Positions 46,914-64,000 of a stretch of 64,000 bases of DNA are shown here, piece by piece (the stretch's first letter is position 1; each line of letters starts with the position of its first letter). This DNA is from a virus (taxonomy: Duplodnaviria > Heunggongvirae > Uroviricota > Caudoviricetes): IMG/VR virus record IMGVR_UViG_3300042363_000940; one strand, 5' to 3'. Below the pieces are notes generated by a model. That model saw nothing but the letters and a program-made list of their open reading frames with translations. It was not told where the DNA came from and ran no database searches. The position numbers were made by a program, and so were the translations under genes.

Positions 46914-46914
46914 T

Positions 46915-49105: not shown

Positions 49106-49124
49106 ACCCCCTTTTTTTATTCGT
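49096..49124. terminator. bidirectional rho-independent terminator between convergent genes
   Basis: AAGGGGG-TATAAA-CCCCCTT with a T-run on the plus side and an A-run on the minus side. Confidence 0.55.
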
Positions 49125-49590
49125 TTGTTTCAGTTGGTTTTGATACCAATTGGAATAAGATTGAATAGTTGTCGGTAGTATCACCGGCGTTCTCCAAATC
49201 CTCTACTGTCAACGGAGTGTACTCAACTTCTTTCTCCTCGTTTAACAACTCACCGTATTCTTTTTGGAAATCGATGTATTTTGGATTTAACTCACGAGAA
49301 ATAACTGCATCGTTCTCATCTTTCTGTTCAATGAACATACCGATTTGAATTCCACCTTTACCATCGTCTTCACCATGTTTTTGGATGATATCATCACGAA
49401 GTGTTTCAACTGACTTGCGTTCTGCAGACAATCTCTCACCAAGTTCTGTCAACCAATATTTGGTTTTAAGTGCTAATTTATGTTTTCTAAAACCGATGAA
49501 AATTTCTTTTCCTGTTTGTGGATTAACCAAACCGTTAATCTCACTCTCCAATTGTAGGATTTCTCCAAGTTTAAGCGTTCTTTTTGCCAT
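49117..49590 (-). CDS. hypothetical protein (157 aa)
   Basis: ORF. Confidence 0.5.
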   Translation of the reverse strand: MAKRTLKLGEILQLESEINGLVNPQTGKEIFIGFRKHKLALKTKYWLTELGERLSAERKSVETLRDDIIQKHGEDDGKGGIQIGMFIEQKDENDAVISRELNPKYIDFQKEYGELLNEEKEVEYTPLTVEDLENAGDTTDNYSILFQLVSKPTETNE

Positions 49591-49645
49591 AATTGTTTAA
49601 TTTGATTTTTATTAATTATACATTTAATTTTTTAAATTGTCAAGT

Positions 49646-50365
49646 CTATTTCCCCAATAATTGAACTTTTGTTACCCCCGTCATCTTATCTTTTAATAAG
49701 GTTGTTAGATTCTTATCCTTTTCAATATTGATTGACGATAATTTTGAGGCAATGGTAATTGAGATACCTTCACCAGATGCAATAATCTTACCTCCATTGA
49801 TTAGACCACAATATTCTTTTGCGACTTGTAATTTTTCATAGATGTTATAAAAATGTTCTTGATTGAAACCATTTTTATTAATGGCAATAAAGTATTCCCA
49901 CAACATCTCAAGTTCATTATAACTCGGATACAATACATCTATATAATTTTTATAGTGAATCCACTCGTGTTGAGTCAAATCCATTTCATCCACATATTCT
50001 TTTTTGATTGGGTGATTAACCAAGGTATCAATATATGATATACCCTCTTTAAATGAATATGATTTTAAATCATCTAAGAATGTGTAATCGGAAATCTCGG
50101 TATCGGCATCAATCAGTATTGAGATGTCGTGATTTTTAAGAATGTATTTTGGAAGTATCATTTTATCATGATACGATTTTTGGGACCTTTCATATGGAAT
50201 TACATGAAGGTATAAAGAAGTTAAAAAGTCTTTAAAGTATTCGGGGTTATCAGTTAGAACGTAACAATGATAACCCCCATTAAGAATTTGTTTTACCTTA
50301 TCGGATGTGATTTTATAATAATAATCTTCACCGAAACAAAAAATTCCAAATCCTATATTGTTCAT
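49646..50365 (-). CDS. hypothetical protein, possible DXD glycosyltransferase
   Basis: ILIDADTE motif; weak. Confidence 0.45.
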   Translation of the reverse strand: MNNIGFGIFCFGEDYYYKITSDKVKQILNGGYHCYVLTDNPEYFKDFLTSLYLHVIPYERSQKSYHDKMILPKYILKNHDISILIDADTEISDYTFLDDLKSYSFKEGISYIDTLVNHPIKKEYVDEMDLTQHEWIHYKNYIDVLYPSYNELEMLWEYFIAINKNGFNQEHFYNIYEKLQVAKEYCGLINGGKIIASGEGISITIASKLSSINIEKDKNLTTLLKDKMTGVTKVQLLGK

Positions 50366-50394
50366 AGGATATAATTTAAGGAAAAAATTTTAAA

Positions 50395-50547
50395 TTACAA
50401 AGTGTTAGATAAGAAATTTGCGTAGTTTGTTGCGGTCTCTTCCTCACCAAATGGTTCGGTTGTCTCCAACACACCATTACGTTTAAATTCAACATACCAT
50501 ACGTTACCATTTTGGTAAACTCTTACATCAGTTATAGTGTTCATATT
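50395..50547 (-). CDS. small hypothetical protein (49 aa), paralog of the next small ORF
   Basis: MNTITDVRVYQNGNVWYVEFKRNGVLETTEPFGEEETATNYANFLSNTL; shares the pattern IY..N..WYV....G....P..E..A.N(F/Y) with 50578-50691. Confidence 0.35.
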   Translation of the reverse strand, partial: NMNTITDVRVYQNGNVWYVEFKRNGVLETTEPFGEEETATNYANFLSNTL

Positions 50548-50577
50548 ATGAATTTAATTTTAAACTAAAATTAATTG

Positions 50578-50691
50578 CATGTTGTTCTTCCATATATGGA
50601 TTACTTATGATAGTTTCACCGTCCTGTATGTATTTTACGTACCAACAGGTGTTTTCTAAATAAATTTCTATGTTATCGATTTCTGGCATAA
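50578..50691 (-). CDS. small hypothetical protein (about 47 aa)
   Basis: MPEIDNIEIYLENTCWYVKYIQDGETIISNPYMEEQHAINFSLKLNS. Confidence 0.35.
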
Positions 50692-50693
50692 TA

Positions 50694-51068
50694 TTATGAA
50701 TTTATATCAAATACAGTTAATGGTCTTTGAACCACAATCCATTGTTGATTAGTTTCATCCCAAATTGCGGCCTGAGTGTTTGTAATCGATGGTCTCTCAA
50801 TTGGTGAATCCCAACATTTTAATTCAGTATTAATAACCCAAGAATTGTAAGGTTTTGGAGGTAAGAATACATCTAAAACCTCATTGTATGTGAAACCAAC
50901 ACCAGCGAACATTCCTCTAATGGTTCCATTATAAGATGTTTGAATCCATCTTCCACCTAAACCTAAGTCAATCGATAGGTATTCCTCACCTCTGTGTTCT
51001 TCCTCATTAGGAACAACTAAAACTTTGGTTACAACGTTATTTAAATCTATTTCTGCAAAATGTGCCAT
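50694..51068 (-). CDS. hypothetical protein (124 aa), structural-block neighbour
   Basis: ORF. Confidence 0.5.
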   Translation of the reverse strand: MAHFAEIDLNNVVTKVLVVPNEEEHRGEEYLSIDLGLGGRWIQTSYNGTIRGMFAGVGFTYNEVLDVFLPPKPYNSWVINTELKCWDSPIERPSITNTQAAIWDETNQQWIVVQRPLTVFDINS

Positions 51069-51072
51069 ATTT

Positions 51073-52740
51073 TTATTTGTATTTATATCTAATTATTACG
51101 ATACCACTTCCACCATTTCCTCCTTGGTTATTTCCATTGTAATGAGAACCCCCGCCACCGCCACCACCGGTGTTGGTACCTCCATTTCCTCCCGGAACGT
51201 TTGCCCATGAACAACACGCACCGTATGCTCCGGGTACTCCCCACATGATTGAATCTTTTCCCCCTTCACCTTGTCCAAGAGCACCTCCACCCCCGCCACC
51301 ACGACCTCCATATCCACCCGCATCATTTGAGTAAGCGGAACCTCCTCCGCCACCGCCCCAATAATATGGTCGGCCTAATATACCTGAAAATTTACCTGAA
51401 CCACCGTTTGGTCTTGAAGGTGAGTTGGTACCAACTGCACCAGCACCTCCACCTCCACCTGAATAGTATTGTCCACCACCTTGACCACCATTAAATCCTT
51501 GACCCGATATTCCTGTACCTCCACTTCTTATATTTCCATCACTATATCCACTTGGTGCCCCTCCCGAACCACCATTACCTGGTGTACCGTAGTTAGGGGT
51601 ATAACCATAATATGAACTTGCTCCAAATCCACCACCTGTGGATGTTAACCCTAATGCAGATGAACTATCACCTTGGGATGCACCTATTTGAAATTGATGA
51701 AATTGTGGTTGTCCCGGTGTATTTGCTGCAGGTGCTCCCGCACCACCAGCCCCAACTGTTATGGTATAAGTGGTTTGATTTAAAACGGTTCGTCCCGATA
51801 AGACACCTCCGCCACCTCCTCCGCCGCCCATGTCCATACCTCCACCGCCACCACCGGCAACGATAAGATATTCCACTTCCAATAATGAAGCGTCGGCAGT
51901 TGATGTGATTGCGAATGTACCACTACTATTAAATCTGTGAACTCTCCATTCACCCACTTCGGTGATAACACCACCAGTGGCAATTACTCTATGATGTTTA
52001 AATGAAGAACCTGAAGTGTTTATTGTTAAGGATTCTAATTTGTTTTGTCTGTTATTATCTAATAAGTTTTGTATTGTTGGTTCTGAACCATCACATAAAT
52101 CAACTCGTGGGTCAAAAAATTGTAATCGTGTTGTATTGTCACCGCAATAGTAAAGATAAGTTCTATGATTTAATCCATATGTACTTGGTCCTGATTTACA
52201 ATCACTACCAATATTACAACCATTAATACTTCCAACTTTTCCTCCTGTTGTTGTCCAAAATCCAGTATCGGGGTGTCCACCCAATCCTTGTGGATAGTCA
52301 AATGGAAAACAATGACCAACAACTAAGTACCATTGGTCTTGTGTTAAACCTCCCGAACCACCACAATGCCAATATGGGTTACACTCCTCGTTTCCGTCGG
52401 ATAGTCTTATAACACATTGACCAATACCATTTGTACCTAAATAAAATGTTCCACCAGCACTAACGGATGTTCTTTTAACCCAAACAGAATGTCTATATAA
52501 TTTTGTGTTGTCGATATAAAACCAATCGGTGTTCCATCCACCGTCGGGGTTTCCATTACCTGATGGTCTTGTTTCCCAAACAACGGCGGAATTACCCCAC
52601 GGGTCGGTACCAACTACTCTTGCATTCTCATCGCCATTTTCATTGGCAGAAAAATTACCAAGGGGTGTGGCAAAACTACTTGAACCCGTTGTCCAATCGT
52701 TTCCCGTTATTTTACTCGATGTTTTATAATATACTGGCAT
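51073..52740 (-). CDS. glycine-rich structural protein (555 aa)
   Basis: Globular N-terminal about 250 aa followed by about 300 aa of poly-Gly low complexity (GGGGGGMDMGGGGGGGG..., GGSGG repeats). Confidence 0.7.
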   Translation of the reverse strand: MPVYYKTSSKITGNDWTTGSSSFATPLGNFSANENGDENARVVGTDPWGNSAVVWETRPSGNGNPDGGWNTDWFYIDNTKLYRHSVWVKRTSVSAGGTFYLGTNGIGQCVIRLSDGNEECNPYWHCGGSGGLTQDQWYLVVGHCFPFDYPQGLGGHPDTGFWTTTGGKVGSINGCNIGSDCKSGPSTYGLNHRTYLYYCGDNTTRLQFFDPRVDLCDGSEPTIQNLLDNNRQNKLESLTINTSGSSFKHHRVIATGGVITEVGEWRVHRFNSSGTFAITSTADASLLEVEYLIVAGGGGGGMDMGGGGGGGGVLSGRTVLNQTTYTITVGAGGAGAPAANTPGQPQFHQFQIGASQGDSSSALGLTSTGGGFGASSYYGYTPNYGTPGNGGSGGAPSGYSDGNIRSGGTGISGQGFNGGQGGGQYYSGGGGGAGAVGTNSPSRPNGGSGKFSGILGRPYYWGGGGGGSAYSNDAGGYGGRGGGGGGALGQGEGGKDSIMWGVPGAYGACCSWANVPGGNGGTNTGGGGGGGSHYNGNNQGGNGGSGIVIIRYKYK

Positions 52741-52747
52741 GTCTTAT

Positions 52748-53536
52748 TTATATTTTAAAACGAACTCTTCCGTTATTAAAGTTTTGTGTTATTTCAGATT
52801 CTGTTAGTGCTCGATTATATATATGAACCATTGGAATATATGCATCCATAAAGTGATTACTATTTACACAACCAACAAAAAATTCATTGGTTGGGGTTCC
52901 CCCAACTCCAACTGCAGCTTTAGAGTCAACTAAAACACCATTTACATATAATCTAACATCACCACCTGAGTCAAGTACAAATCCGTTATAATACCAAATT
53001 CCAGTTTCAAAAGTATAATTATATAAACCACTGTTATTACCCGCACCAGCATAAAAATATCCCTGACCTCCATTTTGAATACCAAGATACGTGTAACCTG
53101 CAGCGTCTTGTGTTCCGGTAAGTGAATAACCACCCGTACCGTCTAAATTTTTATATTTAATCCAAATAAAATAACTTCGAGCACCAGATGGTCTAATTTG
53201 ACTTCGACATTTAGAACTCAATGCCGATTGAAAGTTAGCACTACCATTACCTTGGTCATATATGATTTGTGCTCCCGATTCAATAGTTGCATCGTAACCG
53301 TAACCACTCATATCTCTCCATATTGTGTTACAATTGACACATCCGGGATTTGATGAATAATATTGACACCCATAACCACAATCATAATAATTGGACGTAT
53401 TTTTAAAAGAATAATCATTGGCCGCGTCTAACCATAAGGTAATTCCTCTAGTTACTAATTCGGGTGGATGTATCGTTGTACCCGTTGGGCTAAAATCATC
53501 CGCACCTAATACGTTACCTCCAATTGCTATTGACAT
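52748..53536 (-). CDS. LamG/concanavalin-A-like domain protein (putative distal fibre or receptor-binding protein)
   Basis: RGITLWLDAANDYSFKNTS resembles the LamG_3 (GLVLHLDA...) pattern. Confidence 0.6.
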   Translation of the reverse strand: MSIAIGGNVLGADDFSPTGTTIHPPELVTRGITLWLDAANDYSFKNTSNYYDCGYGCQYYSSNPGCVNCNTIWRDMSGYGYDATIESGAQIIYDQGNGSANFQSALSSKCRSQIRPSGARSYFIWIKYKNLDGTGGYSLTGTQDAAGYTYLGIQNGGQGYFYAGAGNNSGLYNYTFETGIWYYNGFVLDSGGDVRLYVNGVLVDSKAAVGVGGTPTNEFFVGCVNSNHFMDAYIPMVHIYNRALTESEITQNFNNGRVRFKI

Positions 53537-53552
53537 ATTATATTAATTATAG

Positions 53553-54323
53553 TTAAAAATAGTTATTAACTGTAGCGTTATAGTTCTCTAAAATTTCATA
53601 TGGATTTAAAATTCTATTGTAGAGACTAATCATTGAAATGTCGCCCCAATATTGACTTGCATTGTTAACATCATTTTGTGAACCATTGTTGTATGCACCT
53701 ATGGAACAAAATCCGTGTTTAAATCTTGAATTTATACTACTAATACTACCACGTTTAAAACTCGCACTATCGTTATATCCAAATTCATAATAAGGTGCCT
53801 CCGTATCAAAAAATCTCCAAACCATGAAAACCCACGATGATGGGTAACCCGGTAAACTCTGTTGACTAAATCCTGAATTGTTAAAACCTGTTCCATTTGT
53901 GTTATCGTACATTCCAATGTCCCATGCACCCGATTGTATAATGACATGGTGGTCTTGTCCTGAACTTAAACCCCTAAGTAATGTTCTCCATTCCGCAGTA
54001 CTGTTTTTAACTCTAGTCCAAAGACAGATTGTCACATTACCTGACACAATTAAATCCGAACTCTGTTTTTTTGCACAACCATATGAACCATTAAAGTCCA
54101 TATATTTAATTGCGGTTGCTGAATTAAACGCCGATGCATTTATTTCAAAATTATTTCCGAGAGGACTTAAATCAAACCACGTTGTTCCACTACCAGGATA
54201 TGAATCTTTATCGGTTGCATCCAAATGTAGTATCAATCCATCTCTATTATATTTTTGTTTAAAAACTCCTGTTGATGTAATATCGGTACTAGTGATTTCA
54301 TTATTTTTTAGATATAACGCCAT
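53553..54323 (-). CDS. LamG/concanavalin-A-like domain protein
   Basis: DGLILHLDATDKDSYPGSGTTWFDLSPLGNNFEI is the signature of phage LamG-like jellyroll domains. Confidence 0.7.
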   Translation of the reverse strand: MALYLKNNEITSTDITSTGVFKQKYNRDGLILHLDATDKDSYPGSGTTWFDLSPLGNNFEINASAFNSATAIKYMDFNGSYGCAKKQSSDLIVSGNVTICLWTRVKNSTAEWRTLLRGLSSGQDHHVIIQSGAWDIGMYDNTNGTGFNNSGFSQQSLPGYPSSWVFMVWRFFDTEAPYYEFGYNDSASFKRGSISSINSRFKHGFCSIGAYNNGSQNDVNNASQYWGDISMISLYNRILNPYEILENYNATVNNYF

Positions 54324-54324
54324 A

Positions 54325-57300
54325 TTAAATTTCTTCCAAAGTTATGCGGTATTTCTTACCATTTAAGTTATTGATTATGTATAGGTTTTCATCACCCTCT
54401 TGGATTGTCCACGTACCACTTGTTCCGTCAATATCGTTACCTTCGGGTTTATTCATGTTACTTAGGTGTAAGTCATTCGTGTAAATGTTTCTCCAACCTA
54501 ATGATGCTGAACCCAAATCGTATGCGTTATTTGTGGTTGGTAAGAAGTGTCCTGTTGTATTCCAAGAACCATATATTGTACCACCATATGAACCACCATA
54601 GTTCACTCTAACACCCCATCCACCGATTTCATTTAATATTCCAATACCCGCAGCGTCCCAATAGAAACTACCTTTGTAGGTTCCTTGGTGACCCAATCTC
54701 ATTCTTATTTCACCGTAAGATGCGTTTGTAGAACCAACTGTCCAACTTGCGTTGTTTTCTGAATACCAATGGTTATTCGTAGCCTCATTATAAAGACCTT
54801 CATTTACCTGATTATTTCTAAACCAATTGTTGGCATAAATGTCAACAAATGTTGGTGAGTTACTAGTTGATACTCTTTGATTCTCTAATGGTTGGAAACG
54901 AGCATCTGACTCTGTTTCTGTAAAGTATCTGTCGTCATGAGTGTGTGATGACTCAGCGTATTTTCCATCGATATCAACTGTTACAGTTCCACCGTCATTT
55001 CTTGTCATGGTGATAACACCGGTTGACGTATTGAATGTTGCTCCGGTCACATAATAGTTTGTATCGACATATGATGTGATGTATCCACTGTTGTTTGTGA
55101 ACTGAGAAATGTTCATTGAGGTTAGTGCACCTGCGGTGGTTGCATATGTTGCGGTTGCCGCATTTCCTGATGTGTTTTGGTTCCACGTCGGAACTGTTCC
55201 AGTTAATCCACCATAATCAACATTGGTTGCGGTGGACGCGTTACCTATAAAATTACCACTATTATCAATGTAAGATACATCGGTTCCGTTTCTTCTAAAC
55301 TGAACAATTCTATCCGAAGCACTGTCAGATACTATATACCATCTTGCTGAGTGATATTGTATTTTTCCTTGTGTACCTGGGTCACCCGTCCAGTTAGAAG
55401 TAGAATTACTTCTTATATCGGTATTTGTTATTGTTATAGTACCGGTCATTGTACCTCCACCTAAAGGTAGATAAGAACTTAACGAAGATGCCGCCGCGTA
55501 GTATGAACCATGTTGACCATCTAATAAGTCGGCATCAAGTCCCGAACTCGCTCCGTCATTTCCTGCGTGCCATACTGTGTTACCTCTAATAGTTACGGCA
55601 CCTGCATTATCTATCTTGAAATCATTTAGACCATATCTACCCATTACAACTGTGTAATCGGCAAATGCCTCAATCACAGGTAAACCTGAAATTGTGTTAA
55701 CCGAGAAGATTGAATCGGTCATGTCATCGGTGATTGTAAACAATCTACCATTAACACCATCAACGGTCAATGCCTCAGTTCCGGCAACCGTACTATTAAC
55801 CTTAACAGTTTTTAAGTTTGAGGTACTTGCTGGATTTAAGTAATAATTTGTGTCGTTACTATCGTAGTAAATTGGTGCATATACTGCAGTTGTAACGTGA
55901 ACGTTTTGTGAGTTATCACAACGTAACGACCAGTTTCCACCTGTGTTTAAGAAACCAATTTCATTTGAGGTGTTTGCGTATATATAACCTCTTAATGCAC
56001 TTACGTGACCACCCGTGTAGAACCTAATACCAGAATAAGTTGTGGTACTTGACATATCCCAATATCCATTTGAATTTGAGGACAAGTGCTGTGTTGTTAC
56101 CTCATTATAAAAACCGTCGTTTGATTGGGTATTTCTAAACCAATTACTCGCATAAATATCGGTACCGGTTATTGTTCCAGTCACACCTAAATTACCTGAT
56201 GCATCTAAAGTTGTTCTAACATTACCATTTACAATTAAGTTTAATGGATGGTTTGACATTGTACCCATTTTACCCGCTCCGTTTCCGGTGTGGGAATACA
56301 TGGATGTTATGATTCCGTCACTTACTGAAACAACATCAAGTCTTGCATGTGCCGTACCTGCAATGTTTACTCTTGCATTCCAACCACCATCATTTGAGAC
56401 GCTACCATGTCCATCACCAAATTCATTATATGAGTTTGAGAATGTGTTTATTCCCGAGAAACCATTATCTCCCGAAAATGTGAGGTTGGTTGAAGTACTT
56501 GCACCTCTTGCAGTTACAGACGCTAACGTATCTGTTTCAGAATACGATTCCAAATATCTACCATCAATATCAACAGTTACAGTACCACCGTCATTTCTTG
56601 TCATGGTGATAACACCAGTTGATGTATTGAATGTGGCTCCCGTTATATAATTGTCAGTTACTGTTTCAGTTGCTGTCGATAAACCTATAACGTGTCCAAA
56701 ACTATCTAATAATATATCTTGAATGTAAGTTCTTCCTGAGTTGTCGGATGAAGATGCCGCAGCCACCGATGGGTGAGCAGTTAAATAAGTACCAAGTAGT
56801 TGGTATCTTCCATCCAAATTAGGAACAGTCACCGTACCACCGTCATTTCTTGTTAATGTGATAACACCAGTTGATGTATTGAAGGTTGCACCTGTTACAT
56901 AATAGTTTGTATCGACATATGATGTAATATAACCACTGTTGTTTGTGAACTGAGAAATGTTCATTGAGGTTAGTGCACCTGCGGTGGTTGCATATGTTGC
57001 AGTTGCCGCATTTCCACTAATATTAGTTTGGTCTCCAGTGTTTGTTCCTGAAGAAGAACCACTAAAGTTTGACGCTGTAAATGTTCCGGCAATTTGCATA
57101 TTACCATTACCCACATTTAATGCAGCAATTGGTGTACCACCATCAGTTCCCCAAGTAAATCCTCTAGTTGCCCCATTACTATCAATGTTGGTCTTTATAG
57201 AATAATCGGTAACCGGACCATAATGATATTCGGCACTGTTACCCATGTGGATTTTATATAAATCAGAACCTCCCCAGAATTTTAATCCATTACCAGCACC

Positions 57301-60300
57301 CGCTGTTACACCATAAGATGCGTTTAGATTACTCGCGTTTGGTGCGGAACCTGCTGTGGTTGCATATGTTGCGGTTGCCGCATTTCCTGATGTGTTTTGG
57401 TTCCACGTTGGGATGTTTCCTGAGTGATATACTGTGTACTCTGTCAGACCTGCACCAATCCTAACAACCAATCCGTTTGTGTTAACAGGATTCAATACGA
57501 TTATATCATCCGCATCATTTGATACACCGATAACCAATCTATTCGATTCACCTGACGAACCTCCAATACCAAATGCATGATATTGAATGAAACCAAAATC
57601 AGATGGGTGATTAATATTTGAGCCATCTCTTTCAGATTCGAAGAAGATACCACTAACACCAGTACTGTTACCTTTTAATACGATGTTATCCGCACCCGTT
57701 ACATAATTTGATTCCGTTGTATATGTACCTCTTGATAATGAACCACCAACGGTTAAACCACCAATGGTTATGTCATTTGTTGTTGATGCTCCTCTTGTTG
57801 TTACAGACGCTAATGTATCGGTTTCAGAATATGATTCCAAATATCTACCATCGATATCAACTGTCACAGTTCCACCGTCGGTTCTTGTCATGGTGATAAC
57901 ACCATTACCAGTGTTGAATGTTGCACCTGTTACATAGGTGTTGGTGTCAGTAACAACCGAGAAACCAGTAACTGTTACAGTTCCTCCGTTTGATTTGGTA
58001 AGTGTTAATGTACCTGCACTGTACGTACCACCCGTAACTGTAACGTCCGAAATGGACTCCAACATGGTGACGTTATATGTGTCACCATTATTTCTGGTGA
58101 ATGTTAGAACCGCAGTTGACCCATTCCACGTTACTCCCGTGGTGTAGTTATTGGTATCAACATACGATGTAATCCATCCAGGATTTGTGGATACACTACC
58201 GTCGGCCATTAAGAACTGAGAAGAACTTCCTCCACTCTTAACAAGTGAAGTTGCCGTTAATGCCCCCGCATTGGTTATTGTTACTATATTGGTCGCACCA
58301 CCGTTTCTAAATACAAAATCACCTCCACCTGTGTTTTGGAAATATAAATTGTTTGAGTGCCATTGAATTTTGTTTTCTTCTCCTGTCCAACTACCGTAGT
58401 TACCTTTTAATGCATAACCACCGGCAATTGTTAAGTTGTCATCAACATAAACAGAACCATTGAAGTATGATGTTCCGTTGTTATAAAAAGTATATCCGGA
58501 GTTGGCTCCACCTATTGAGACATTTCCGTTAACAAAGAGTTTAACTCCTGAAACGGGTGATGCACCCATCGCAATGTTTCCACTAGTATTAAGATGGAAA
58601 TCGTTTTGATTATAACGACCCATTATAACTTTATTATCAGCGAACGCCTCAATTACGGGAACACCCGCAATTGTATTAACTGAGAATAATGAGTTACTTA
58701 AATCATCTGTGATTGTAAACAATCTACCATTAACACCATCAACCGTGAATACTTCTGTTCCACTTGCTGTACTGTTTAATTTAACAGTTGATAAGTTTGA
58801 AGTACTTGCCGGATTTAAATAATATGCGGTGTCATTAATATCGTAGTAAATTGGTGCGTAAACTCTACCTGAACCATCTACTCTATATGTGAATGATGAA
58901 CTGTCCGTTCTTAATGCGTAACCATAAGTGGCCCCTGCGGCAATGTTTACATAAATACCATATTCTGATTTAGAACTGTTATATGCGTTGAACTGTGCCA
59001 ACCAGTCATTGTTGTTTGTTGCGGTTACATATAAAGTGGCATCTTGAACTGTGTTACTATTTCCACCATCAATCCAAAGACCTCTATTATCATAAGTTCG
59101 AACCATTGTTGATTCGGTTTGGTAGATACCACCACCATGTGTTGAGTTGTACCAACCAGTATTTCCACTACTTCTAAACCAATCACTTGCGTTAAATGAA
59201 GCGGCATAAACGTAATCAGTTGATGGATTTACATAAACTTCAGCGGTTCCATAAACCGCATTTCCTGAACCCCATAATAATTGATAGTTACTGTTACTAT
59301 TATTGTTGTAACTAATTGCCCCAAGATACGTTCCCGCCTCTTGGTACTTACCATCGATATCAACTGTTACAGTACCGCCATCATTTCTTGTCATGGTGAT
59401 AACACCAGTTGATGTATTAAATGTTGCTCCGGTTACATAATAATTTGTGTCGGTATCAACAACTGTTTCACTTGCGGTGGTGATTCCGGTGATGTGACCA
59501 AAACTATCTAATAAAATGTCTTGTATGTAAGTTCTACCTGAGTTGTCTGAAGAACCAGCAGCACTTACTGAAGGGTGACCTGTTAAGAACGCAGATGCGT
59601 GTTGACCATCAAGAGTATCCGCATCCAACCCACTTCCACTTCCATCATTACCAGAATGCCAAATTCTATATCTAACGTTACCTACTGACCATCCACCCCA
59701 TACTAAGTCATTTTCTGCACCACCTAATCCGAAGTAACCCGCATAATCTCCACCAATGTGGAATGTCATATATGCATCAGCACCTGCGGTATCTTGGTAG
59801 ACAGTTAATCCCCTATTAGCGGCGGCAACTGTATTAATAAATGTATTTGATGTTTGATAAAACTCGGCAGTTCTTGTTGTTGATGCCCCACGAGAAAGTA
59901 CACTATCTAATGTATCGGTTTCAGAATAACCAGTTATGTATCCACTATTATTTGTAAACTGAGAAATATTCATACTACTCAACGCACCAGCAGTATCGGC
60001 ATAACCCGCATAAATCTTATACCAAGAACCCCACGTAGTTGCTTCTCTTGTTCTAAATGTTACATACCTATCAGAAGTATTATATCTTGGGATTGCCAAC
60101 TGCATTGCGTAGTTAGCAAATGAATAATCATTACCAAGTCCCAAAGTAAATCCGTAGAATTGTGATGAACCCGTACCCGGACCGTTTGTTGACCCATTCA
60201 CATATCTCGCTCCAAAGTCTCCAACACTATTAAAATCGGTGTAGGTACTATGATTCTGACCCATGTTATTGAACAAACGATGTTCGTCTGTCATATCATC

Positions 60301-63300
60301 TATTACCGAATGGGTGTGTGATGATTCCGCATATTTTCCATCAATATCAACCGTGACTGTACCACCATCATTTCTTGTCATGGTGATAACACCAGTTGAA
60401 GTATTAAATGTTGCTCCCGTTACGTAATAGTTCGTATCGGTGTTAACTGATGATATATCAACCGGACTACTAAACGCCCCTCCTGAACCGGTAAATGTTA
60501 AATTAGTGCCGTCAAAAGTAACATCACTAATAAAATCATTCGTATCGGTTACAGTCTCACTCGCGGTAGTGATACCGGTTATATGACCAAAACCATCCAA
60601 TAAAATATCTTGTATGTATGTGCGTCCACTGTTGTTCGATGAACCTGCAGCACTTACTGAAGGGTGAGCAGTTAAGAATGAAGATGCGTGAAGACCATCT
60701 AAGGTATCGGCATCTAATCCTGAAGATGCCCCATCAGTACCCGCAGTCCACACTTTTGAATTATCCCAATATAAAACACCATCAGTTCTCATTTCTAAGA
60801 ACTTACCAACATTACCACTTATATGAAACGCAACACCAGTGGTGGTGTTACCATATGATTCAGTTGTAAGTGCTGCGGTCGAGTAGTTATTATCGGTTTG
60901 ATTCTTTCTGGCATTTAAACCTCCGGTGAACACCGATTGTGTTGAGGTTGACGCTCCCCTTGCTGTTACAGATGCCAATGTATCCGTTTCAGAATATGAA
61001 GTTAAGAATGAAGATGCGTGAAGACCATCTAAGGTATCAGCATCTAATCCTGAAGATGCCCCATCGTTTCCTGAGTGCCATACCGTTCCACCATTTACTG
61101 TTGCGGAACCACTAACCGCAAATGAACCACTTACTGTTGTTGTTGTTCCACTAACAACAAATGCGTTTGTTCCGAATGAACCCGCAACTAATTTGTCATC
61201 AGAGAATACCTCTAATATTGGTAAACCTGAAATATCGTTAACTGAGAATAATGAACCCGATAAACTATCGGTTATTGAGAACAATTGTCCTTGTGAACCT
61301 TGAACATCAAATACTAAACTACCTGAACCATAAACTTGTAATGGAACGTTTGGTGTTGCTGTATCTGATTCACCATAACCAACTCTAACACCTCTAGCAA
61401 CTGTTAAGTAACCATTGGTTGTAAGTGCCATTGCACCTTGTGCATCACTATGAGCAGTATCACCCCACCAAAAACCTCTATCGTCTTCACTATTGAATTG
61501 GAAAGTCATTGCGTAGTCATTAAGACCACCATATGTCATTCCATTCATCATACCAATTGCATACTCACTAGATGTACCCCATAATCTAAACTTATCTCTT
61601 AATGGTGAATACGTTGTGTTATATGCCGTTGCGGTAACACTTGAGAATGTTGGACTATTACTTGTACCTAAATCTTGGTTGATTGTATATTGAGTAATAT
61701 TGTATGCGTTTCCGGTAATATTACCTGTGATTTTTGAACCGGCAAGTGCGGTAATCCATGAAGGGTTACTATATGTACCGTTATCGTAAACACCATTAGT
61801 TACCGTTGCGGCATTTCCTGATATATTGATACCCCAAGTACCATTTTCAAAAACATATTTGTAACCGGCACCATTTCTAAGGAAACCATCTGTCGCCAAA
61901 TAGAATCTAACATTACCTGATTGTGTGAATTTAATTTCTTCATCACTATCATCCTGTGTACCGATTTCTAAGTATGAACCACCAGCGGCGTTACTTGTTG
62001 AAATAAACTTGATGAATGCAGCATCGGTATTCACTCCCCATGTTAAACCTAAGTTTGATGTTGCACCGAATGCAATGTTACCGGTCATTGTACCTCCCGA
62101 TAATGGAAGTTTTGCTCCGATTGAACTCGCAATCGTTGTTGCGAAGTTCGCATCGTCACCTAACGCCGCCGCCAATTCATTTAAAGTATCAAGTGCTGAA
62201 GGTGCCCCATCAATCAGGTTCGTAATTTGTGTTTGTACATAACCTGTGGTTGCATAACCCTGACTTGCGTGGTTACCCCATCCATATGCGGTATCCCAAT
62301 TTGATTTGTTATATCCTGTTATCGCAACCGAACCTCCAAAGAAGTTGGCGATTTCAGTTTCTGTATAATATCTTGTATCTGTTGTAGTTGAATAGTTGTT
62401 TGTATTCAAATACTCATATTGTGTTATGTCTCCACCACCGTAGATTGGTCCCGTCACAATCATACCACCTTGTGGTGTTTGGTCAAGGTCAACTTGTGCT
62501 GGAGTTTCGGTCAATGCGGGGAAATTACTTACATCTCCAGGGTCAACAGCCTCATCAACCCAATCTTTAATAACCCAACCGCTTGATTGGATATTTTCCA
62601 ACATCCATGCTTGTACCGTAGAACTACTTTGGTCTATATAAACTTGAAGTAATGCACCATCGTATGTTGAACCATCTTGAATACGAATGTATCTAAATGG
62701 ATTACCTGAATATCTTGAGTTAATTAAAACTGTAATATCTGAGTAATTTCCATAATGGTGTGTTGCATAGAACACAACTGATTGGTGATTACCACTTGAG
62801 GTGTCTCTTAAAATAAATTTACCAACCGCTCTGCTCCCCGTGTTTACCGCAATGGTATACCATCGACCATCGGGTAATCCCAAAGTTTCTACATTTTTAA
62901 CATACGGAAGATATCTATCATCATGAGTGTGACCCAATTCTGAATACTTTCCATCGATATCAACTGTTACAGTATTACCGTCATTACGTGTAAGTGTAAT
63001 AATACCATTACCTGTATTGAAAGTTGCTCCTGTTACATAGTAATTTGTATTTGTATCAACAACCGTTTCAGTACCTGTTGTAATTCCTGTAATATGTCCA
63101 AATGAATCTAATAAGATGTCTTGGATATATGTTCTTCCTGAGTTATCAGATGAACTCGCCGCACTCACCGAAGGGTGAGCGGTTAAGAATCTACCATCGA
63201 TATCAACGGTGATTGTGTTTCCGTCATTTCTTGTTAAAGTGATAACCCCATCACCTGTGTTGAACGTTGCCCCCGTTACATAATAGTTCGTATCGGTTAC

Positions 63301-64000
63301 TGTTTCACTTGCGGTTGTTATACCTGTTATATGTCCAAATGAATCTAAAAGTATGTCTTGGATGTATGTTCTTCCACTATTGTTCGAAGAACTTGCCGCA
63401 GATACAGAAGGGTGTGCGGTTAAATATGTGTTAGTGTCTAACGAACCATCACCCTTAACGAACTCACCACTATTACCTCCTTGGGTAATGAATGATGCCG
63501 CAGTTATTGATATTGTTGAGGTGTTACCTCTTTGAACAACATCCTCTAATGTTGATATTTCACTGTACGATGTTAAGAACCTACCATCGATATCAACAGT
63601 ATATGTTCCACCGTCGTTACGAGTGTATGTAATTACACCGTTACTGGTATTGAAGGTTGCACCTGTTGTGTAGTAATCAGTACTTGATACACCATATCTT
63701 CCATCTAAATCAACAGTATAAGTTCCACCATCTGTTCTTGTGAAAGTTAAAACACCGTCGCCCGTGTTAAATGTTACACCAGTTGTGTAATAGTTTAAGT
63801 ATGAAGTTAAATATGTATTTGTATCAACACTACCATCTGCCTTTAAGAACTGAGATGATGTTCCACCACTCTTAACAAATGATGTTGCTCTTACATTTCC
63901 ACTCACCGCCAATTTATATCCCGATACAGGTAGTAATCCCATACCAATCTCACCTGTTGTTCCTAAGTAGAAATCATTTTGATTAAATCTACCCATTACA
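54325..64000 (-). CDS. giant repetitive fibre protein, C-terminal 3223 aa at least (N-terminus beyond the window end)
   Basis: Single uninterrupted minus-strand frame to the window edge. About 14 copies of a roughly 33-aa unit YYVTGATFNT(S/G)xGVIT(M/L)TRNDGGTVTVDIDG(R/K)(Y/F), at least 5 copies of LTAHPSVSAAxSSxNSGRTYIQDILLDSFGHITGITT, at least 4 copies of WHSGNDGASSGLDADTLDGLHASSFL, and 3 copies of SGNAATATYATTAGALTSMNISQFTNNSGYI. Confidence 0.85.
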   Translation of the reverse strand, partial: VMGRFNQNDFYLGTTGEIGMGLLPVSGYKLAVSGNVRATSFVKSGGTSSQFLKADGSVDTNTYLTSYLNYYTTGVTFNTGDGVLTFTRTDGGTYTVDLDGRYGVSSTDYYTTGATFNTSNGVITYTRNDGGTYTVDIDGRFLTSYSEISTLEDVVQRGNTSTISITAASFITQGGNSGEFVKGDGSLDTNTYLTAHPSVSAASSSNNSGRTYIQDILLDSFGHITGITTASETVTDTNYYVTGATFNTGDGVITLTRNDGNTITVDIDGRFLTAHPSVSAASSSDNSGRTYIQDILLDSFGHITGITTGTETVVDTNTNYYVTGATFNTGNGIITLTRNDGNTVTVDIDGKYSELGHTHDDRYLPYVKNVETLGLPDGRWYTIAVNTGSRAVGKFILRDTSSGNHQSVVFYATHHYGNYSDITVLINSRYSGNPFRYIRIQDGSTYDGALLQVYIDQSSSTVQAWMLENIQSSGWVIKDWVDEAVDPGDVSNFPALTETPAQVDLDQTPQGGMIVTGPIYGGGDITQYEYLNTNNYSTTTDTRYYTETEIANFFGGSVAITGYNKSNWDTAYGWGNHASQGYATTGYVQTQITNLIDGAPSALDTLNELAAALGDDANFATTIASSIGAKLPLSGGTMTGNIAFGATSNLGLTWGVNTDAAFIKFISTSNAAGGSYLEIGTQDDSDEEIKFTQSGNVRFYLATDGFLRNGAGYKYVFENGTWGINISGNAATVTNGVYDNGTYSNPSWITALAGSKITGNITGNAYNITQYTINQDLGTSNSPTFSSVTATAYNTTYSPLRDKFRLWGTSSEYAIGMMNGMTYGGLNDYAMTFQFNSEDDRGFWWGDTAHSDAQGAMALTTNGYLTVARGVRVGYGESDTATPNVPLQVYGSGSLVFDVQGSQGQLFSITDSLSGSLFSVNDISGLPILEVFSDDKLVAGSFGTNAFVVSGTTTTVSGSFAVSGSATVNGGTVWHSGNDGASSGLDADTLDGLHASSFLTSYSETDTLASVTARGASTSTQSVFTGGLNARKNQTDNNYSTAALTTESYGNTTTGVAFHISGNVGKFLEMRTDGVLYWDNSKVWTAGTDGASSGLDADTLDGLHASSFLTAHPSVSAAGSSNNSGRTYIQDILLDGFGHITGITTASETVTDTNDFISDVTFDGTNLTFTGSGGAFSSPVDISSVNTDTNYYVTGATFNTSTGVITMTRNDGGTVTVDIDGKYAESSHTHSVIDDMTDEHRLFNNMGQNHSTYTDFNSVGDFGARYVNGSTNGPGTGSSQFYGFTLGLGNDYSFANYAMQLAIPRYNTSDRYVTFRTREATTWGSWYKIYAGYADTAGALSSMNISQFTNNSGYITGYSETDTLDSVLSRGASTTRTAEFYQTSNTFINTVAAANRGLTVYQDTAGADAYMTFHIGGDYAGYFGLGGAENDLVWGGWSVGNVRYRIWHSGNDGSGSGLDADTLDGQHASAFLTGHPSVSAAGSSDNSGRTYIQDILLDSFGHITGITTASETVVDTDTNYYVTGATFNTSTGVITMTRNDGGTVTVDIDGKYQEAGTYLGAISYNNNSNSNYQLLWGSGNAVYGTAEVYVNPSTDYVYAASFNASDWFRSSGNTGWYNSTHGGGIYQTESTMVRTYDNRGLWIDGGNSNTVQDATLYVTATNNNDWLAQFNAYNSSKSEYGIYVNIAAGATYGYALRTDSSSFTYRVDGSGRVYAPIYYDINDTAYYLNPASTSNLSTVKLNSTASGTEVFTVDGVNGRLFTITDDLSNSLFSVNTIAGVPVIEAFADNKVIMGRYNQNDFHLNTSGNIAMGASPVSGVKLFVNGNVSIGGANSGYTFYNNGTSYFNGSVYVDDNLTIAGGYALKGNYGSWTGEENKIQWHSNNLYFQNTGGGDFVFRNGGATNIVTITNAGALTATSLVKSGGSSSQFLMADGSVSTNPGWITSYVDTNNYTTGVTWNGSTAVLTFTRNNGDTYNVTMLESISDVTVTGGTYSAGTLTLTKSNGGTVTVTGFSVVTDTNTYVTGATFNTGNGVITMTRTDGGTVTVDIDGRYLESYSETDTLASVTTRGASTTNDITIGGLTVGGSLSRGTYTTESNYVTGADNIVLKGNSTGVSGIFFESERDGSNINHPSDFGFIQYHAFGIGGSSGESNRLVIGVSNDADDIIVLNPVNTNGLVVRIGAGLTEYTVYHSGNIPTWNQNTSGNAATATYATTAGSAPNASNLNASYGVTAGAGNGLKFWGGSDLYKIHMGNSAEYHYGPVTDYSIKTNIDSNGATRGFTWGTDGGTPIAALNVGNGNMQIAGTFTASNFSGSSSGTNTGDQTNISGNAATATYATTAGALTSMNISQFTNNSGYITSYVDTNYYVTGATFNTSTGVITLTRNDGGTVTVPNLDGRYQLLGTYLTAHPSVAAASSSDNSGRTYIQDILLDSFGHVIGLSTATETVTDNYITGATFNTSTGVITMTRNDGGTVTVDIDGRYLESYSETDTLASVTARGASTSTNLTFSGDNGFSGINTFSNSYNEFGDGHGSVSNDGGWNARVNIAGTAHARLDVVSVSDGIITSMYSHTGNGAGKMGTMSNHPLNLIVNGNVRTTLDASGNLGVTGTITGTDIYASNWFRNTQSNDGFYNEVTTQHLSSNSNGYWDMSSTTTYSGIRFYTGGHVSALRGYIYANTSNEIGFLNTGGNWSLRCDNSQNVHVTTAVYAPIYYDSNDTNYYLNPASTSNLKTVKVNSTVAGTEALTVDGVNGRLFTITDDMTDSIFSVNTISGLPVIEAFADYTVVMGRYGLNDFKIDNAGAVTIRGNTVWHAGNDGASSGLDADLLDGQHGSYYAAASSLSSYLPLGGGTMTGTITITNTDIRSNSTSNWTGDPGTQGKIQYHSARWYIVSDSASDRIVQFRRNGTDVSYIDNSGNFIGNASTATNVDYGGLTGTVPTWNQNTSGNAATATYATTAGALTSMNISQFTNNSGYITSYVDTNYYVTGATFNTSTGVITMTRNDGGTVTVDIDGKYAESSHTHDDRYFTETESDARFQPLENQRVSTSNSPTFVDIYANNWFRNNQVNEGLYNEATNNHWYSENNASWTVGSTNASYGEIRMRLGHQGTYKGSFYWDAAGIGILNEIGGWGVRVNYGGSYGGTIYGSWNTTGHFLPTTNNAYDLGSASLGWRNIYTNDLHLSNMNKPEGNDIDGTSGTWTIQEGDENLYIINNLNGKKYRITLEEI

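What the first reader, a model, noticed from the sequence alone, without database searches (positions are those of the whole stretch)
54325..64000. Giant (>3200 aa) fibre protein built from several near-identical repeat families, with DNA-level repeats of 60-100 nt
The largest gene in the window is one minus-strand frame that runs off the window end. At least four repeat families are interleaved: a 33-aa YYVTGATFNT..GVIT.TRNDGGTVTVDIDG unit, a 44-aa LTAHPSVSAA..NSGRTYIQDILLDSFGHITGITT unit, a WHSGNDGASSGLDADTLDGLHASSFL unit, and SGNAATATYATTAGALTSMNISQFTNNSGYI. Repeat copies are often more than 90 percent identical at the nucleotide level. For example the block around 54975-55200 recurs around 56565-57010, 57350-57420, 59340-59430, 60330-60420 and 62950-63020. 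That identity makes copy-number change by recombination or slippage plausible, and so possibly host-range variation. Fibre proteins of this size are rare and usually uncharacterised.
Basis: seen in the sequence. Interest (0 to 1): 0.7.

Follow-up and report, generated by a model that had tools for sequence, protein, structure and literature searches.

The report
Giant modular phage fibre gene

Summary
The observation largely holds. Window 54325-64000 (minus strand) is one uninterrupted frame of 3,224 codons that is still open at the window edge. Public assemblies give the full gene: 12,174 nt, 4,057 aa. The exact protein sits on 14 contigs, the longest 310.7 kb.

They are interspersed, not tandem.

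The claim of frequent identity above 90% at the nucleotide level fails. Copies are 76-88% identical as protein but about 68-77% as DNA. Only 2 of 48 self-matches reach 90% over at least 60 nt, and codon choice at conserved residues is near random.

Eighteen close relatives (2,270-4,107 aa) at the same conserved locus carry the same modules in different numbers and orders. Two alternative C-termini co-vary 7/7 with two unrelated downstream gene blocks. One 110-aa cassette is flanked by a 66-nt, 98.5% identical direct repeat and is missing in several relatives.

Recombination at conserved modules is therefore supported over evolutionary time. Slippage or rapid copy-number switching is not.

Best reading: a homotrimeric tail or adhesion fibre of a jumbo phage. 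It is a new member of a known kind, of moderate interest.

The parts
54325..64000 (-). 3' 9.7 kb (3,224 codons plus stop) of a 12,174-nt, 4,057-aa fibre gene. The 5' 2.5 kb lies beyond the window.
63694..63792 (-). A33 unit (YYxTGxTFNT..G.IT.TRNDGGT.TVDIDG), copy 1 in the window
   Evidence: HMM domains
63577..63675 (-). A33 unit, copy 2
63187..63285 (-). A33 unit, copy 3
62944..63042 (-). A33 unit, copy 4
60331..60429 (-). A33 unit, copy 5
59344..59442 (-). A33 unit, copy 6
58051..58149 (-). A33 unit, copy 7 (divergent, NYTTGVTWN)
57841..57939 (-). A33 unit, copy 8
56803..56904 (-). A33 unit, copy 9
56554..56652 (-). A33 unit, copy 10
54958..55056 (-). A33 unit, copy 11
63286..63423 (-). B44 unit (LTAHPSVSAA..NSGRTYIQDILLDSFGHITGITT..ETV), copy 1. 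It nearly always precedes an A33 unit.
   Evidence: AF2 model of the B+A pair has pLDDT 82.7.
63049..63186 (-). B44 unit, copy 2
60538..60675 (-). B44 unit, copy 3
59449..59586 (-). B44 unit, copy 4
56647..56784 (-). B44 unit, copy 5
61003..61083 (-). C unit (WHSGNDG..SGLDADTLDG.HASSFL), copy 1. It is the upstream flank of the 110-aa cassette.
60673..60753 (-). C unit, copy 2, the downstream flank of the 110-aa cassette. Its core is a 66-nt, 98.5% identical direct repeat of copy 1 (61000-61065 vs 60670-60735).
59584..59664 (-). C unit, copy 3
55495..55575 (-). C unit, copy 4
60754..61002 (-). Cassette between the two C units (SYSETDTL...KNQTDNNY...VLYWDNSKV). It is present in P0001, P0007 and P0008 and absent in P0002, P0003, P0006, P0009 and P0010.
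56926..57018 (-). D+E unit (SGNAATATYATTAGALTSMNISQFTNNSGYI), copy 1. It contains the 68-nt exact repeat 56933-57000.
55078..55170 (-). D+E unit, copy 2. It contains the 68-nt exact repeat 55085-55152.
57355..57390 (-). D unit alone (PTWNQNTSGNAATATYATT)
61786..61821 (-). D unit, divergent (SGNAATVTNGVY)
59935..59982 (-). E unit alone (LSSMNISQFTNNSGYI)
63505..63570 (-). F linker (SYSE.STL..V..RG), copy 1. It heads variable cassettes.
60934..60999 (-). F linker, copy 2
59866..59931 (-). F linker, copy 3
57769..57834 (-). F linker, copy 4
56482..56547 (-). F linker, copy 5
61147..61332 (-). G unit (VF.V.G..G.LF..TD.LS.SLFSVN.ISGLP..E.F.D), copy 1
58585..58770 (-). G unit, copy 2
55606..55791 (-). 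G unit, copy 3
63796..63885 (-). H unit (SFVKSGG.SSQFLKADGSV), copy 1
63409..63498 (-). H unit, copy 2 (divergent)
58159..58251 (-). H unit, copy 3
62083..62262 (-). Collar/coiled motif (GYVQTQITNLID.AP.ALDTLNELAAALGDD.NFATT). A second copy lies upstream, outside the window.
   Evidence: PHROG tail-fibre families. For the copy outside the window, PDB 9d93 'tail collar fibers gp4' at 6e-12.
62299..62943 (-). Single-copy, non-repeat globular region that begins with HTHDDRYLPY...WYTIAVN...GKFILRDTSSGNHQS. It is also found in the Lauvirus podophage fibre (49% identity) and in 5,000-aa relatives.
62923..62931 (-). HxH motif 1 (KYSELGHTHDDRY), directly after an A33 unit
60310..60318 (-). HxH motif 2 (KYAESSHTHSV)
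54844..54945 (-). Conserved junction HTHDDRYFTETESDARFQPLENQRVSTSNSPTF (holds HxH motif 3). Downstream of it, relatives carry one of two unrelated distal ends.
54328..54843 (-). Distal C-terminal cassette of the 'tip' type (172 aa)
54328..54522 (-). Terminal 65-aa module (YDLGSASLGWRNIYTNDLHLSN...WTIQEG.ENLYIINN..GKKYRITLEEI). It always sits at the exact C-terminus and is 60-86% identical in more than 80 metagenome proteins.
   Evidence: AF2 gives pLDDT 79-93 for the last 50 aa.
53553..54323 (-). 256-aa gene starting 2 nt after the fibre stop. It has a weak concanavalin-like (Laminin_G_3) match and belongs to the block that co-varies with the tip-type C-terminus.
52748..53536 (-). 262-aa Laminin_G_3 (concanavalin-A-like lectin fold) protein in the same co-varying block
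   Evidence: (1.3e-17)
51073..52740 (-). 555-aa Gly_rich_2 protein in the same co-varying block
   Evidence: (4e-15)

Best explanation
This is the receptor-binding or adhesion fibre, most likely a long tail fibre, of an uncultivated aquatic jumbo phage with a genome of at least 311 kb.

Structure. One 4,057-residue chain, with 46% of residues Ser, Thr, Asn or Gly and a single Cys, probably forms a homotrimeric, mostly beta-structured segmented rod. By proportion to the T4 long tail fibre it would be about 200 nm long (inference). Short conserved shaft and linker modules (A33, B44, C, D/E, F, G, H, collar) cover about 38% of the chain. They alternate with larger, more variable cassettes. The chain ends in a highly conserved 65-aa cap.

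Role of the repeats. The repeats are kept alike as protein by structural constraint, while their DNA has drifted apart.

Source of diversity. Diversity in the family arises by homologous recombination, within a genome and mainly between co-infecting relatives. The conserved modules serve as crossover points. Whole cassettes are gained, lost or replaced. The distal end, together with three downstream genes (two lectin-fold proteins and a glycine-rich protein in this window), is exchanged as a single unit.

What is shown: the ORF, the modules, the mosaicism among orthologous loci, and the co-variation of the distal end with the downstream genes. What is inferred: the trimeric state, attachment to the tail, receptor binding, and any effect on host range.
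For: Gene and assembly:
- The ORF is intact and reproducible.

Fibre identity:
- PHROG tail-fibre families match (phrog_22284 at 1e-42, and others).
- The C-terminal ~100 aa match the P-SCSP1u tail fibre gp28 at 1.2e-17, and a collar motif upstream of the window matches PDB 9d93; the window's own copy of that motif is supported by PHROG tail-fibre hits.
- Pieces match genes annotated as tail fibre in cultured Synechococcus, Flavobacterium, Roseobacter and Lau218 phages.
- Orthologues at the same locus end in a Peptidase_S74 intramolecular-chaperone domain, a hallmark of trimeric fibres.

Viral context:
- Window gene content is phage-like, and the N-terminal domain has relatives on IMG/VR contigs.

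Module shuffling:
- Module counts vary among 19 relatives: A33 6-13, B44 3-8, C 1-6.
- Against L002, the flanks are colinear at 88-91% nucleotide identity while the gene interior is broken into replaced blocks.
- 14 of 18 block ends lie within 5 aa of a module edge, against 20.5% expected (P = 3e-7).
- Different cassettes follow the same '...HASSFLT' junction in different relatives.
- A 110-aa cassette is bounded by a 66-nt, 98.5% identical direct repeat exactly 330 nt apart. It is present in 3 relatives and absent in at least 5. Its two flanking units are more alike than either is to its orthologue.

Distal cassette:
- C-terminus type co-varies 7/7 with the downstream gene block. The two blocks show no similarity.

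Fold:
- The AF2 model of the B+A pair is all-beta, a hairpin plus a three-strand meander, with pLDDT 82.7.
Against: - No virion data exist. Homology to an experimentally assigned tail fibre covers only the last ~100 of 4,057 residues.
- No baseplate, sheath, capsid or terminase gene was recognised in the 64-kb window or in the flanks of related loci. The neighbours are sugar-metabolism genes.
- No Pfam or NCBIfam model matches the window protein.
- Fold searches with both models found nothing, so the trimeric beta-fibre architecture is not demonstrated.
- The block-end statistic partly reflects that conserved modules simply align better than cassettes.
- Apart from the one 66-nt pair, paralogous units are less alike than orthologous ones, so intragenic exchange is rare.
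Confidence: 0.65

Rival explanations
1. It is a virion appendage other than the tail fibre: head fibres, collar whiskers, or tail 'hairs' as seen on some jumbo phages. It would be used for reversible first contact or particle stabilisation rather than for triggering infection.
For: - The collar-type motif upstream of the window matches a protein deposited as 'tail collar fibers' (9d93).
- No baseplate genes lie nearby.
- Jumbo phages with whisker-like structures along the tail are described (PMC5259590, title and abstract).
Against: - The only experimentally placed homologous segment, the C-terminus, belongs to a true tail fibre (8i4m; PMC10575957).
- All annotated PHROG matches are 'tail fiber' or 'tail protein'.
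Confidence: 0.2
2. It is a contingency locus. Near-identical DNA repeats would cause frequent copy-number change by slippage or unequal crossing-over within a population, giving rapid host-range switching.
For: - There are 34 exact direct repeats of at least 20 nt, the longest 68 nt.
- One 66-nt repeat pair at 98.5% identity flanks a cassette that is variably present among relatives.
Against: - There are no tandem arrays.
- Mean nucleotide identity of repeat copies is 0.65-0.77. The same-codon fraction at conserved residues is 0.51-0.54, against 0.42-0.47 expected by chance.
- The identical 4,057-aa protein is on 14 contigs, plus a one-residue variant on another.
- No inverted repeats suggest an invertible switch.
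Confidence: 0.1
3. It is an assembly artefact: a collapsed, expanded or chimeric repeat region, or really several genes.
For: Repetitive genes are a classic source of short-read misassembly.
Against: - An independent contig is identical apart from 1 mismatch over 12,377 nt.
- The exact protein is on 14 contigs.
- The longest exact repeat is 68 nt.
- Eighteen relatives keep single ORFs of 2,270-4,107 aa at the same locus.
- There is no stop codon in 3,224 codons.
Confidence: 0.02
4. It is a bacterial cell-surface adhesin on a chromosome or plasmid rather than a phage protein.
For: - No capsid or terminase gene lies in the window.
- The neighbours look like polysaccharide-synthesis genes.
Against: - No tRNA gene was found in 64 kb, and none of the ORFs that were scanned matched a ribosomal or other housekeeping family; not every ORF was scanned.
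- Many ORFs match PHROG families typical of large phages.
- Relatives of the N-terminal domain lie on 49 IMG/VR viral loci.
- No match was found in cellular protein-family models.
Confidence: 0.03

Closest known systems
T4-type long tail fibres (gp34-gp37) and the mosaic distal locus gp37/gp38
   Same: - Both are long, segmented fibres built from reiterated short motifs.
- Host-range diversity arises by recombination between conserved motifs that swaps distal cassettes and their associated adhesin genes (PMC3157838; the Tetart et al. 1998 work is cited from my own knowledge).
- HxH motifs are present here. In T4 gp37 they bind iron (my own knowledge).
- Here too, a glycine-rich protein gene follows the fibre gene.
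   Different: - T4 uses four separate proteins of at most 1,289 aa. Here a single chain has 4,057 aa.
- No T4 gp34/36/37/38 family was hit in Pfam, PHROGs or PDB.
- The modules here are different sequences.
Tail fibre gp28 of T7-like cyanopodovirus P-SCSP1u (PDB 8i4m) and homologues in P-SSP3, P-GSP1 and P-RSP2
   Same: The C-terminal ~100 aa are homologous, including the terminal 65-aa cap (1.2e-17; tblastn 44-60% identity).
   Different: - gp28 is 1,079 aa and docks on a podovirus adaptor/nozzle through an N-terminal jelly-roll domain (PMC10575957). That domain is not detected here.
- According to the paper, only the fibre N-terminus was clearly resolved, so it offers no description of the shared C-terminal part.
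Fibres and tailspikes with a C-terminal Peptidase_S74 intramolecular chaperone (K1F endosialidase, T5 pb1 type)
   Same: Orthologues of this gene at the same locus (P0002, P0003, P0005, P0010, P0012-P0015, P0017) end in Peptidase_S74. This implies a trimeric fibre that folds from its C-terminus.
   Different: The window protein itself has no S74 domain. It carries the alternative 65-aa cap, whose function is unknown.
PHROG 22284 and related 'tail fiber protein' families of marine and freshwater phages
   Same: The A33 units match this 1,236-position profile (1.2e-42, 3 stretches).
   Different: These are annotation-level families with no experimental characterisation. The window protein is about three times longer and combines many more module types.

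Membership tests
Phage tail fibre (homotrimeric receptor-binding fibre) | Sequence homology to a fibre whose place on the tail is experimentally established | tested here: met
   The last ~100 aa match P-SCSP1u gp28 (8i4m) at 1.2e-17. This covers only 2.5% of the chain.
Phage tail fibre (homotrimeric receptor-binding fibre) | Elongated beta-structured trimer | tested here: inconclusive
Phage tail fibre (homotrimeric receptor-binding fibre) | Presence in virions, attached to the baseplate or tail | not testable with these tools
   The phage is uncultivated, and no proteomics or EM data exist.
Phage tail fibre (homotrimeric receptor-binding fibre) | Gene lies in or next to the tail/baseplate module | tested here: not met
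   Neighbours within about 10 kb are sugar-nucleotide and glycosyltransferase genes, lectin-fold proteins and unknowns. No baseplate, sheath or tube family was recognised.
Peptidase_S74 (intramolecular chaperone) fibres | C-terminal Peptidase_S74 domain | tested here: not met
   There is no Pfam hit in the window protein. The domain is present in the orthologue P0002 at 2e-10.
T4 gp34/gp37-type long tail fibre | Sequence membership of the T4 fibre families | tested here: not met
   No such Pfam, PHROG or PDB match was found.
T4 gp34/gp37-type long tail fibre | HxH metal-binding motifs in the shaft | tested here: inconclusive
   There are three KY.E..HTH motifs. Metal binding was not tested.
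T7-like cyanopodovirus fibre (gp28 family) | N-terminal adaptor/nozzle-docking domain | tested here: not met
   phmmer aligns only the C-terminus plus one weak internal stretch. The N-terminus here is a different, widely shared domain.
Tandem-repeat contingency locus | Head-to-tail arrays of near-identical units | tested here: not met
   TRF finds only a single 30-nt array. The units are dispersed and 56-89% identical as DNA.
Invertible-segment (Gin/Cin-type) tail-fibre switch | Inverted repeats flanking alternative 3' ends | tested here: not met
   Only five weak inverted pairs (18-36 nt, 76-89% complementary) were found in 50000-64000.

The most novel reading that the evidence does not exclude
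The fibre is a polyvalent 'string of adhesins', and the locus is a phage glycan island that decorates it.

The fibre gene sits in a conserved island of polysaccharide-type genes. Upstream lie a UDP-glucose dehydrogenase, a carbamoyltransferase and an acetyltransferase. On the other side lie UDP-galactopyranose mutase, several glycosyltransferases and a methyltransferase-like gene.

In the most novel reading, this machinery glycosylates the Ser/Thr/Asn-rich giant fibre. Virus-encoded glycosylation is known for mimivirus fibrils and for mycobacteriophage virions. The interspersed variable cassettes along the shaft would each bind a different host ligand.

Nothing here excludes this reading. Nothing supports it beyond gene adjacency, synteny and amino-acid composition. 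The known glycosylation sequons are not enriched.
Probability: 0.12. Interest if true: 0.7.

Novelty: new member of a known kind. Interest (0 to 1): 0.35.

Why it matters
At 4,057 residues this is among the largest phage proteins, and it belongs to an uncultivated jumbo-phage lineage from aquatic metagenomes.

The family offers an unusually clear natural experiment in fibre modularity:
- The same locus in about 90%-identical genomes carries different numbers and orders of a small set of conserved modules.
- Cassettes are exchanged at recognisable junction motifs.
- There are two mutually exclusive distal ends, each linked to its own set of downstream genes.

This could guide rules for engineering receptor-binding proteins and for predicting host range from metagenomes.

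The B+A repeat hits 2,839 cluster representatives at 50% identity, yet it has no Pfam model and no solved structure. The ubiquitous 65-aa C-terminal cap is also uncharacterised.

The finding does not overturn anything. Mosaic tail fibres evolving by recombination at conserved motifs are textbook biology.

Tried and rejected
- Near-identity DNA search of 44000-64000 against 50,697 phage records found no match.
- Pfam and NCBIfam found nothing on the window protein.
- Tandem Repeats Finder found no arrays.
- Whole-protein self-BLASTP returned only the self hit because of HSP containment. I replaced it with a chunked search. That search over-calls: 89% of residues were flagged as 'repeated', probably from composition bias. 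I therefore used motif-seeded HMMs instead.
- Foldseek against PDB with the C-terminal model gave no hit at E <= 0.001. Only the last ~50 residues of that model are confident.
- The idea that the fibre is enriched in glycosylation sequons was rejected. D[ST][AILVMT] occurs 22 times against 25.7 expected, and N-x-S/T 80 times against 84.8.
- No invertible segment or shufflon: there are no meaningful inverted repeats.
- The two alternative downstream gene blocks show no similarity by BLASTP.
- PDB sequence search of the three downstream proteins gave only a weak lectin-fold hit for the 262-aa protein.
- The contig look-up for the exact window protein P0369 returned nothing on record.
- L003 and L054 were not available to scripts, so nucleotide-level comparison was limited to L001, L002 and L053.
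- Literature searches for described giant fibres of this lineage found none. The 'moraphage' paper (PMC12619734) describes aquatic jumbo phages with glutamine synthetase and four core glycosyltransferases. That resembles this window, but membership was not tested.
Full report

The minus strand of 54325-63999 translates without a single stop for 3,224 codons. The ORF lister starts it at an ATG at 63996, but the preceding codon is GTA (Val) and the frame is open to the window edge. The first residues (VMGRFNQNDFYLG...) repeat an internal motif of the same protein, so the gene is truncated by the window.

A protein search found P0001, with 4,057 aa and 100% coverage. Its contig L001 matches the last 12,377 nt of the window with one mismatch and no gap. 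That places the start codon 2,498 nt beyond the window and gives a 12,174-nt gene.

A second cluster member, P0369, is identical to the window translation over all 3,224 residues. It is recorded on 14 contigs, the longest 310,691 bp. The longest exact internal repeat is 68 nt. The gene is therefore real, single and reproducibly assembled.

**2. The repeats**

Motif-seeded HMMs define nine module families in the full protein:

| Module | Description | Copies in full protein | Copies in window |
|---|---|---|---|
| A33 | 33-aa unit | 13 | 11 |
| B44 | 44-46-aa unit | 6 | 5 |
| C | GLDADTLDG unit | 4 | 4 |
| D | SGNAAT | 4 | 4 |
| E | MNISQFTNNSGYI | 3 | 3 |
| F | SYSETDTL linker | 7 | 5 |
| G | ~62-aa unit | 4 | 3 |
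| H | SSQFLKADGS unit | 4 | 3 |
| I | collar motif | 2 | 1 |

- Together these cover 38-39% of the chain.
- They are interleaved, not tandem. Tandem Repeats Finder reports only one 30-nt array.
- None of these modules occurs in any other ORF of the window.

Only 2 of 48 self-matches reach 90% identity over at least 60 nt. Per family:

| Module | Mean amino-acid identity | Mean nucleotide identity |
|---|---|---|
| A33 | 0.76 | 0.71 |
| B44 | 0.88 | 0.77 |
| C | 0.75 | 0.68 |

At residues conserved between copies, the same codon is used only 51-54% of the time. Gene-wide codon usage predicts 42-47%. The copies are therefore old duplicates held alike by selection on the protein. They are not recent, near-identical DNA repeats.

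**3. What kind of protein is it?**

- *Family models.* Pfam and NCBIfam have no model for it. PHROGs match several 'tail fiber' families: phrog_22284 at 1.2e-42 on A33 units, and others on the collar motif.
- *Solved structures.* Against PDB sequences, the last ~100 residues match the tail-fibre protein gp28 of cyanopodovirus P-SCSP1u (8i4m, 1.2e-17). The copy of the collar motif that lies upstream of the window matches 'tail collar fibers gp4' (9d93, 6e-12). In the P-SCSP1u paper gp28 forms six trimers docked on the tail. The paper states that the fibre N-terminus was clearly resolved (PMC10575957), so it does not describe the C-terminal part shared with this protein.
- *Cultured phages.* tblastn finds short pieces in genes annotated as tail fibre in Synechococcus, Flavobacterium, Roseobacter, Prochlorococcus and Lau218 phages.
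- *Viral context.* The N-terminal ~290 aa have relatives on 49 IMG/VR viral loci, on contigs up to 335 kb. The window's other genes are typical of large phages:
  - thymidylate synthase next to a homing endonuclease;
  - tRNA nucleotidyltransferase;
  - DNA methyltransferase;
  - 2OG-Fe(II) oxygenase;
  - a polymerase-exonuclease-like protein;
  - SPFH and PcfJ-like proteins;
  - a glutamine-synthetase-like protein.

 No tRNA gene was found.
- *Missing hallmarks.* No capsid, terminase, sheath or baseplate gene was recognised. Tail attachment is inferred, not shown.
- *Composition.* 46% of residues are Ser, Thr, Asn or Gly, there is one Cys, and there are three KY.E..HTH motifs.

**4. Structure predictions**

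For the C-terminal 140 aa, only the last ~50 residues are confident (pLDDT 79-93, four strands). Foldseek found no match. The units are beta-structured, and no more can be said from monomer models.

**5. Comparison with relatives: the key evidence**

The first protein search returned 18 close relatives of 2,270-4,107 aa, plus more than 100 further proteins of 1,800-5,400 aa that share modules.

- *Same locus.* Seven related loci have the same upstream genes: UDP-glucose dehydrogenase, carbamoyltransferase, a 70-92-aa protein, a ~549-637-aa protein, a 48-49-aa protein, and a divergently oriented acetyltransferase. These are therefore orthologous positions.
- *Mosaic interior.* L001 and L002 (the latter on a 311-kb contig) are colinear and 88-91% identical in the flanks. 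The gene interior is broken into similar and replaced blocks.
- *Variable module counts.* Among 19 proteins, A33 ranges from 6 to 13, B44 from 3 to 8 and C from 1 to 6, and the order strings differ.
- *Breaks at module edges.* 14 of 18 block ends lie within 5 aa of a module edge, against 20.5% expected (P = 3e-7). One caveat applies: conserved modules also simply align better than cassettes.
- *Shared junctions.* After the same junction '...LDG.HASSFLT', different relatives continue with a B unit or with one of three different F-headed cassettes.
- *A textbook indel.* In the window protein, a 110-aa cassette lies between two C units whose cores form a 66-nt, 98.5% identical direct repeat exactly 330 nt apart (61000-61065 and 60670-60735). 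P0007 and P0008 have the cassette. P0002, P0003, P0006, P0009 and P0010 lack it and keep a single C unit. The two flanking units are more alike (0.89 nucleotide identity) than the first is to its orthologue in P0006 (0.83). For the other C units, the orthologous copies compared are more alike than any paralogous pair, with one tie. This is what recombination between direct repeats leaves behind. It appears to be the exception rather than the rule within a genome.

**6. Two alternative distal ends**

All relatives share the junction HTHDDRYFTETESDARFQPLENQR.ST (window 54844-54945). Downstream of it there are two options:

- the 'tip' type found in the window, which ends in the 65-aa cap YDLGS..LGWRNIYTNDLHLSN...WTIQEG.ENLYIINN..GKKYRITLEEI;
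- an unrelated end containing a Peptidase_S74 intramolecular-chaperone domain.

The type co-varies perfectly with the downstream genes in seven distinct loci (the window and L001 are the same locus):

| C-terminus type | Loci | Downstream genes |
|---|---|---|
| Tip | window/L001, L002, L053, L054 | 253-256 aa; 262-aa Laminin_G_3; 555-558-aa Gly_rich_2 |
| S74 | L003, L055, L056 | 323-326 aa; 321-324 aa; 527-528 aa; later a Trp-halogenase-like gene |

The two gene sets show no sequence similarity. The distal end and its partner genes therefore move as one cassette. This recalls the gp37/gp38 distal locus of T4-type phages (PMC3157838).

The 65-aa cap always sits at the exact C-terminus. It is 60-86% identical in more than 80 metagenome proteins and in Prochlorococcus podoviruses. 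That is too conserved for a host-specific binding site. Because it alternates with S74 at the same position, I infer that it is a folding or trimerisation nucleus. Specificity would then reside in the upstream cassettes, the lectin-fold partners, or both. This is inference only.

**7. How common is this?**

A profile of the B+A unit hits 2,839 cluster representatives (50% identity) among 1.84 billion proteins at E <= 0.001, and 1,214 at E <= 1e-10. The hit proteins range from 149 to 3,671 aa. One relative, P0020, carries roughly 50 consecutive B-like units. The repeat is thus widespread in uncultivated phages yet unnamed in Pfam. Proteins above 3,000 aa are rare among cultured phages but not in metagenomes.

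**8. Verdict**

The finding is a real, complete-able, 4,057-aa modular fibre gene of a jumbo phage.

- The evolutionary idea is right in outline, since module gain, loss and exchange by recombination is supported. It is wrong on mechanism and tempo, since there is no slippage and no evidence of rapid switching.
- It is a new, very large member of a known kind: mosaic receptor-binding fibres.
- The most interesting leads are the two linked distal cassettes, the uncharacterised 65-aa cap, the unnamed B+A repeat family, and the conserved glycan-gene island around the fibre gene.

Noticed in passing
window 41999-49105 (+ strand), and L001 646-6422 upstream of the fibre gene: A polysaccharide-type gene island surrounds the fibre operon. 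On one side are two glycosyltransferases (41999-44601), three unknown genes, UDP-galactopyranose mutase (46915-48012, 55-58% identical to Glf in Streptococcus prophages) and a GT2 (48002-49105). On the other side are UDP-glucose dehydrogenase, a carbamoyltransferase and an acetyltransferase. The synteny is conserved in related loci. Its target is unknown: virion, DNA or host surface.
   Followed up: partly
window 50001-64000 compared with the rest of the window: G+C content is 0.36-0.40 across the fibre gene and its downstream partners, against 0.30-0.36 elsewhere in the window. This may reflect the Gly/Thr/Ser/Ala-rich composition or a different origin.
   Followed up: no
window 37201-38493 and 36467-37129: The thymidylate synthase is long (430 aa). 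344 of its residues align to about 250 profile positions, which suggests an insertion. A homing-endonuclease-like gene lies immediately downstream. This may be a mobile-element insertion or an intein-like arrangement.
   Followed up: no
window 38857-39987: A glutamine-synthetase-like gene is present (Gln-synt_C at 8e-16, Gln-synt_N at 5e-9). Together with several glycosyltransferases this resembles the 'moraphage' lineage of aquatic jumbo phages with predicted Bacteroidota hosts (PMC12619734). Membership was not tested.
   Followed up: partly
window 3798-4730 and 19064-20083: Two ORFs of 310 and 339 aa hit the same two PHROG families of unknown function (17056 and 28193). They are probably paralogues 15 kb apart.
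   Followed up: no
window 14770-15504, 22666-23589 and 32516-34387: A tRNA nucleotidyltransferase (8e-61), an SPFH/Band-7 protein (6.5e-21) and a 623-aa PcfJ-like protein are encoded, although the window holds no tRNA gene.
   Followed up: no
P0020 (relative, 3,667 aa), outside the window: This extreme relative consists of roughly 50 consecutive B-like units (TYTAGDGINLVGTEF.H.DTSS..STNN..RTYIQNIEVD.FGHITGVTT..ETVV). It shows that the B unit alone can build most of a fibre.
   Followed up: no
P0104 and P0105 (relatives, 5,397 and 5,087 aa), outside the window: These even larger proteins share the single-copy globular domain (WYTIA.N.G.RA..RF.LRD..SG.HQS..FYASH..GN.SE.T.LH.SRYSGNP.RYIRI) and the GLDAD units. 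Otherwise their architecture is different, and they end in an S74-like domain.
   Followed up: no
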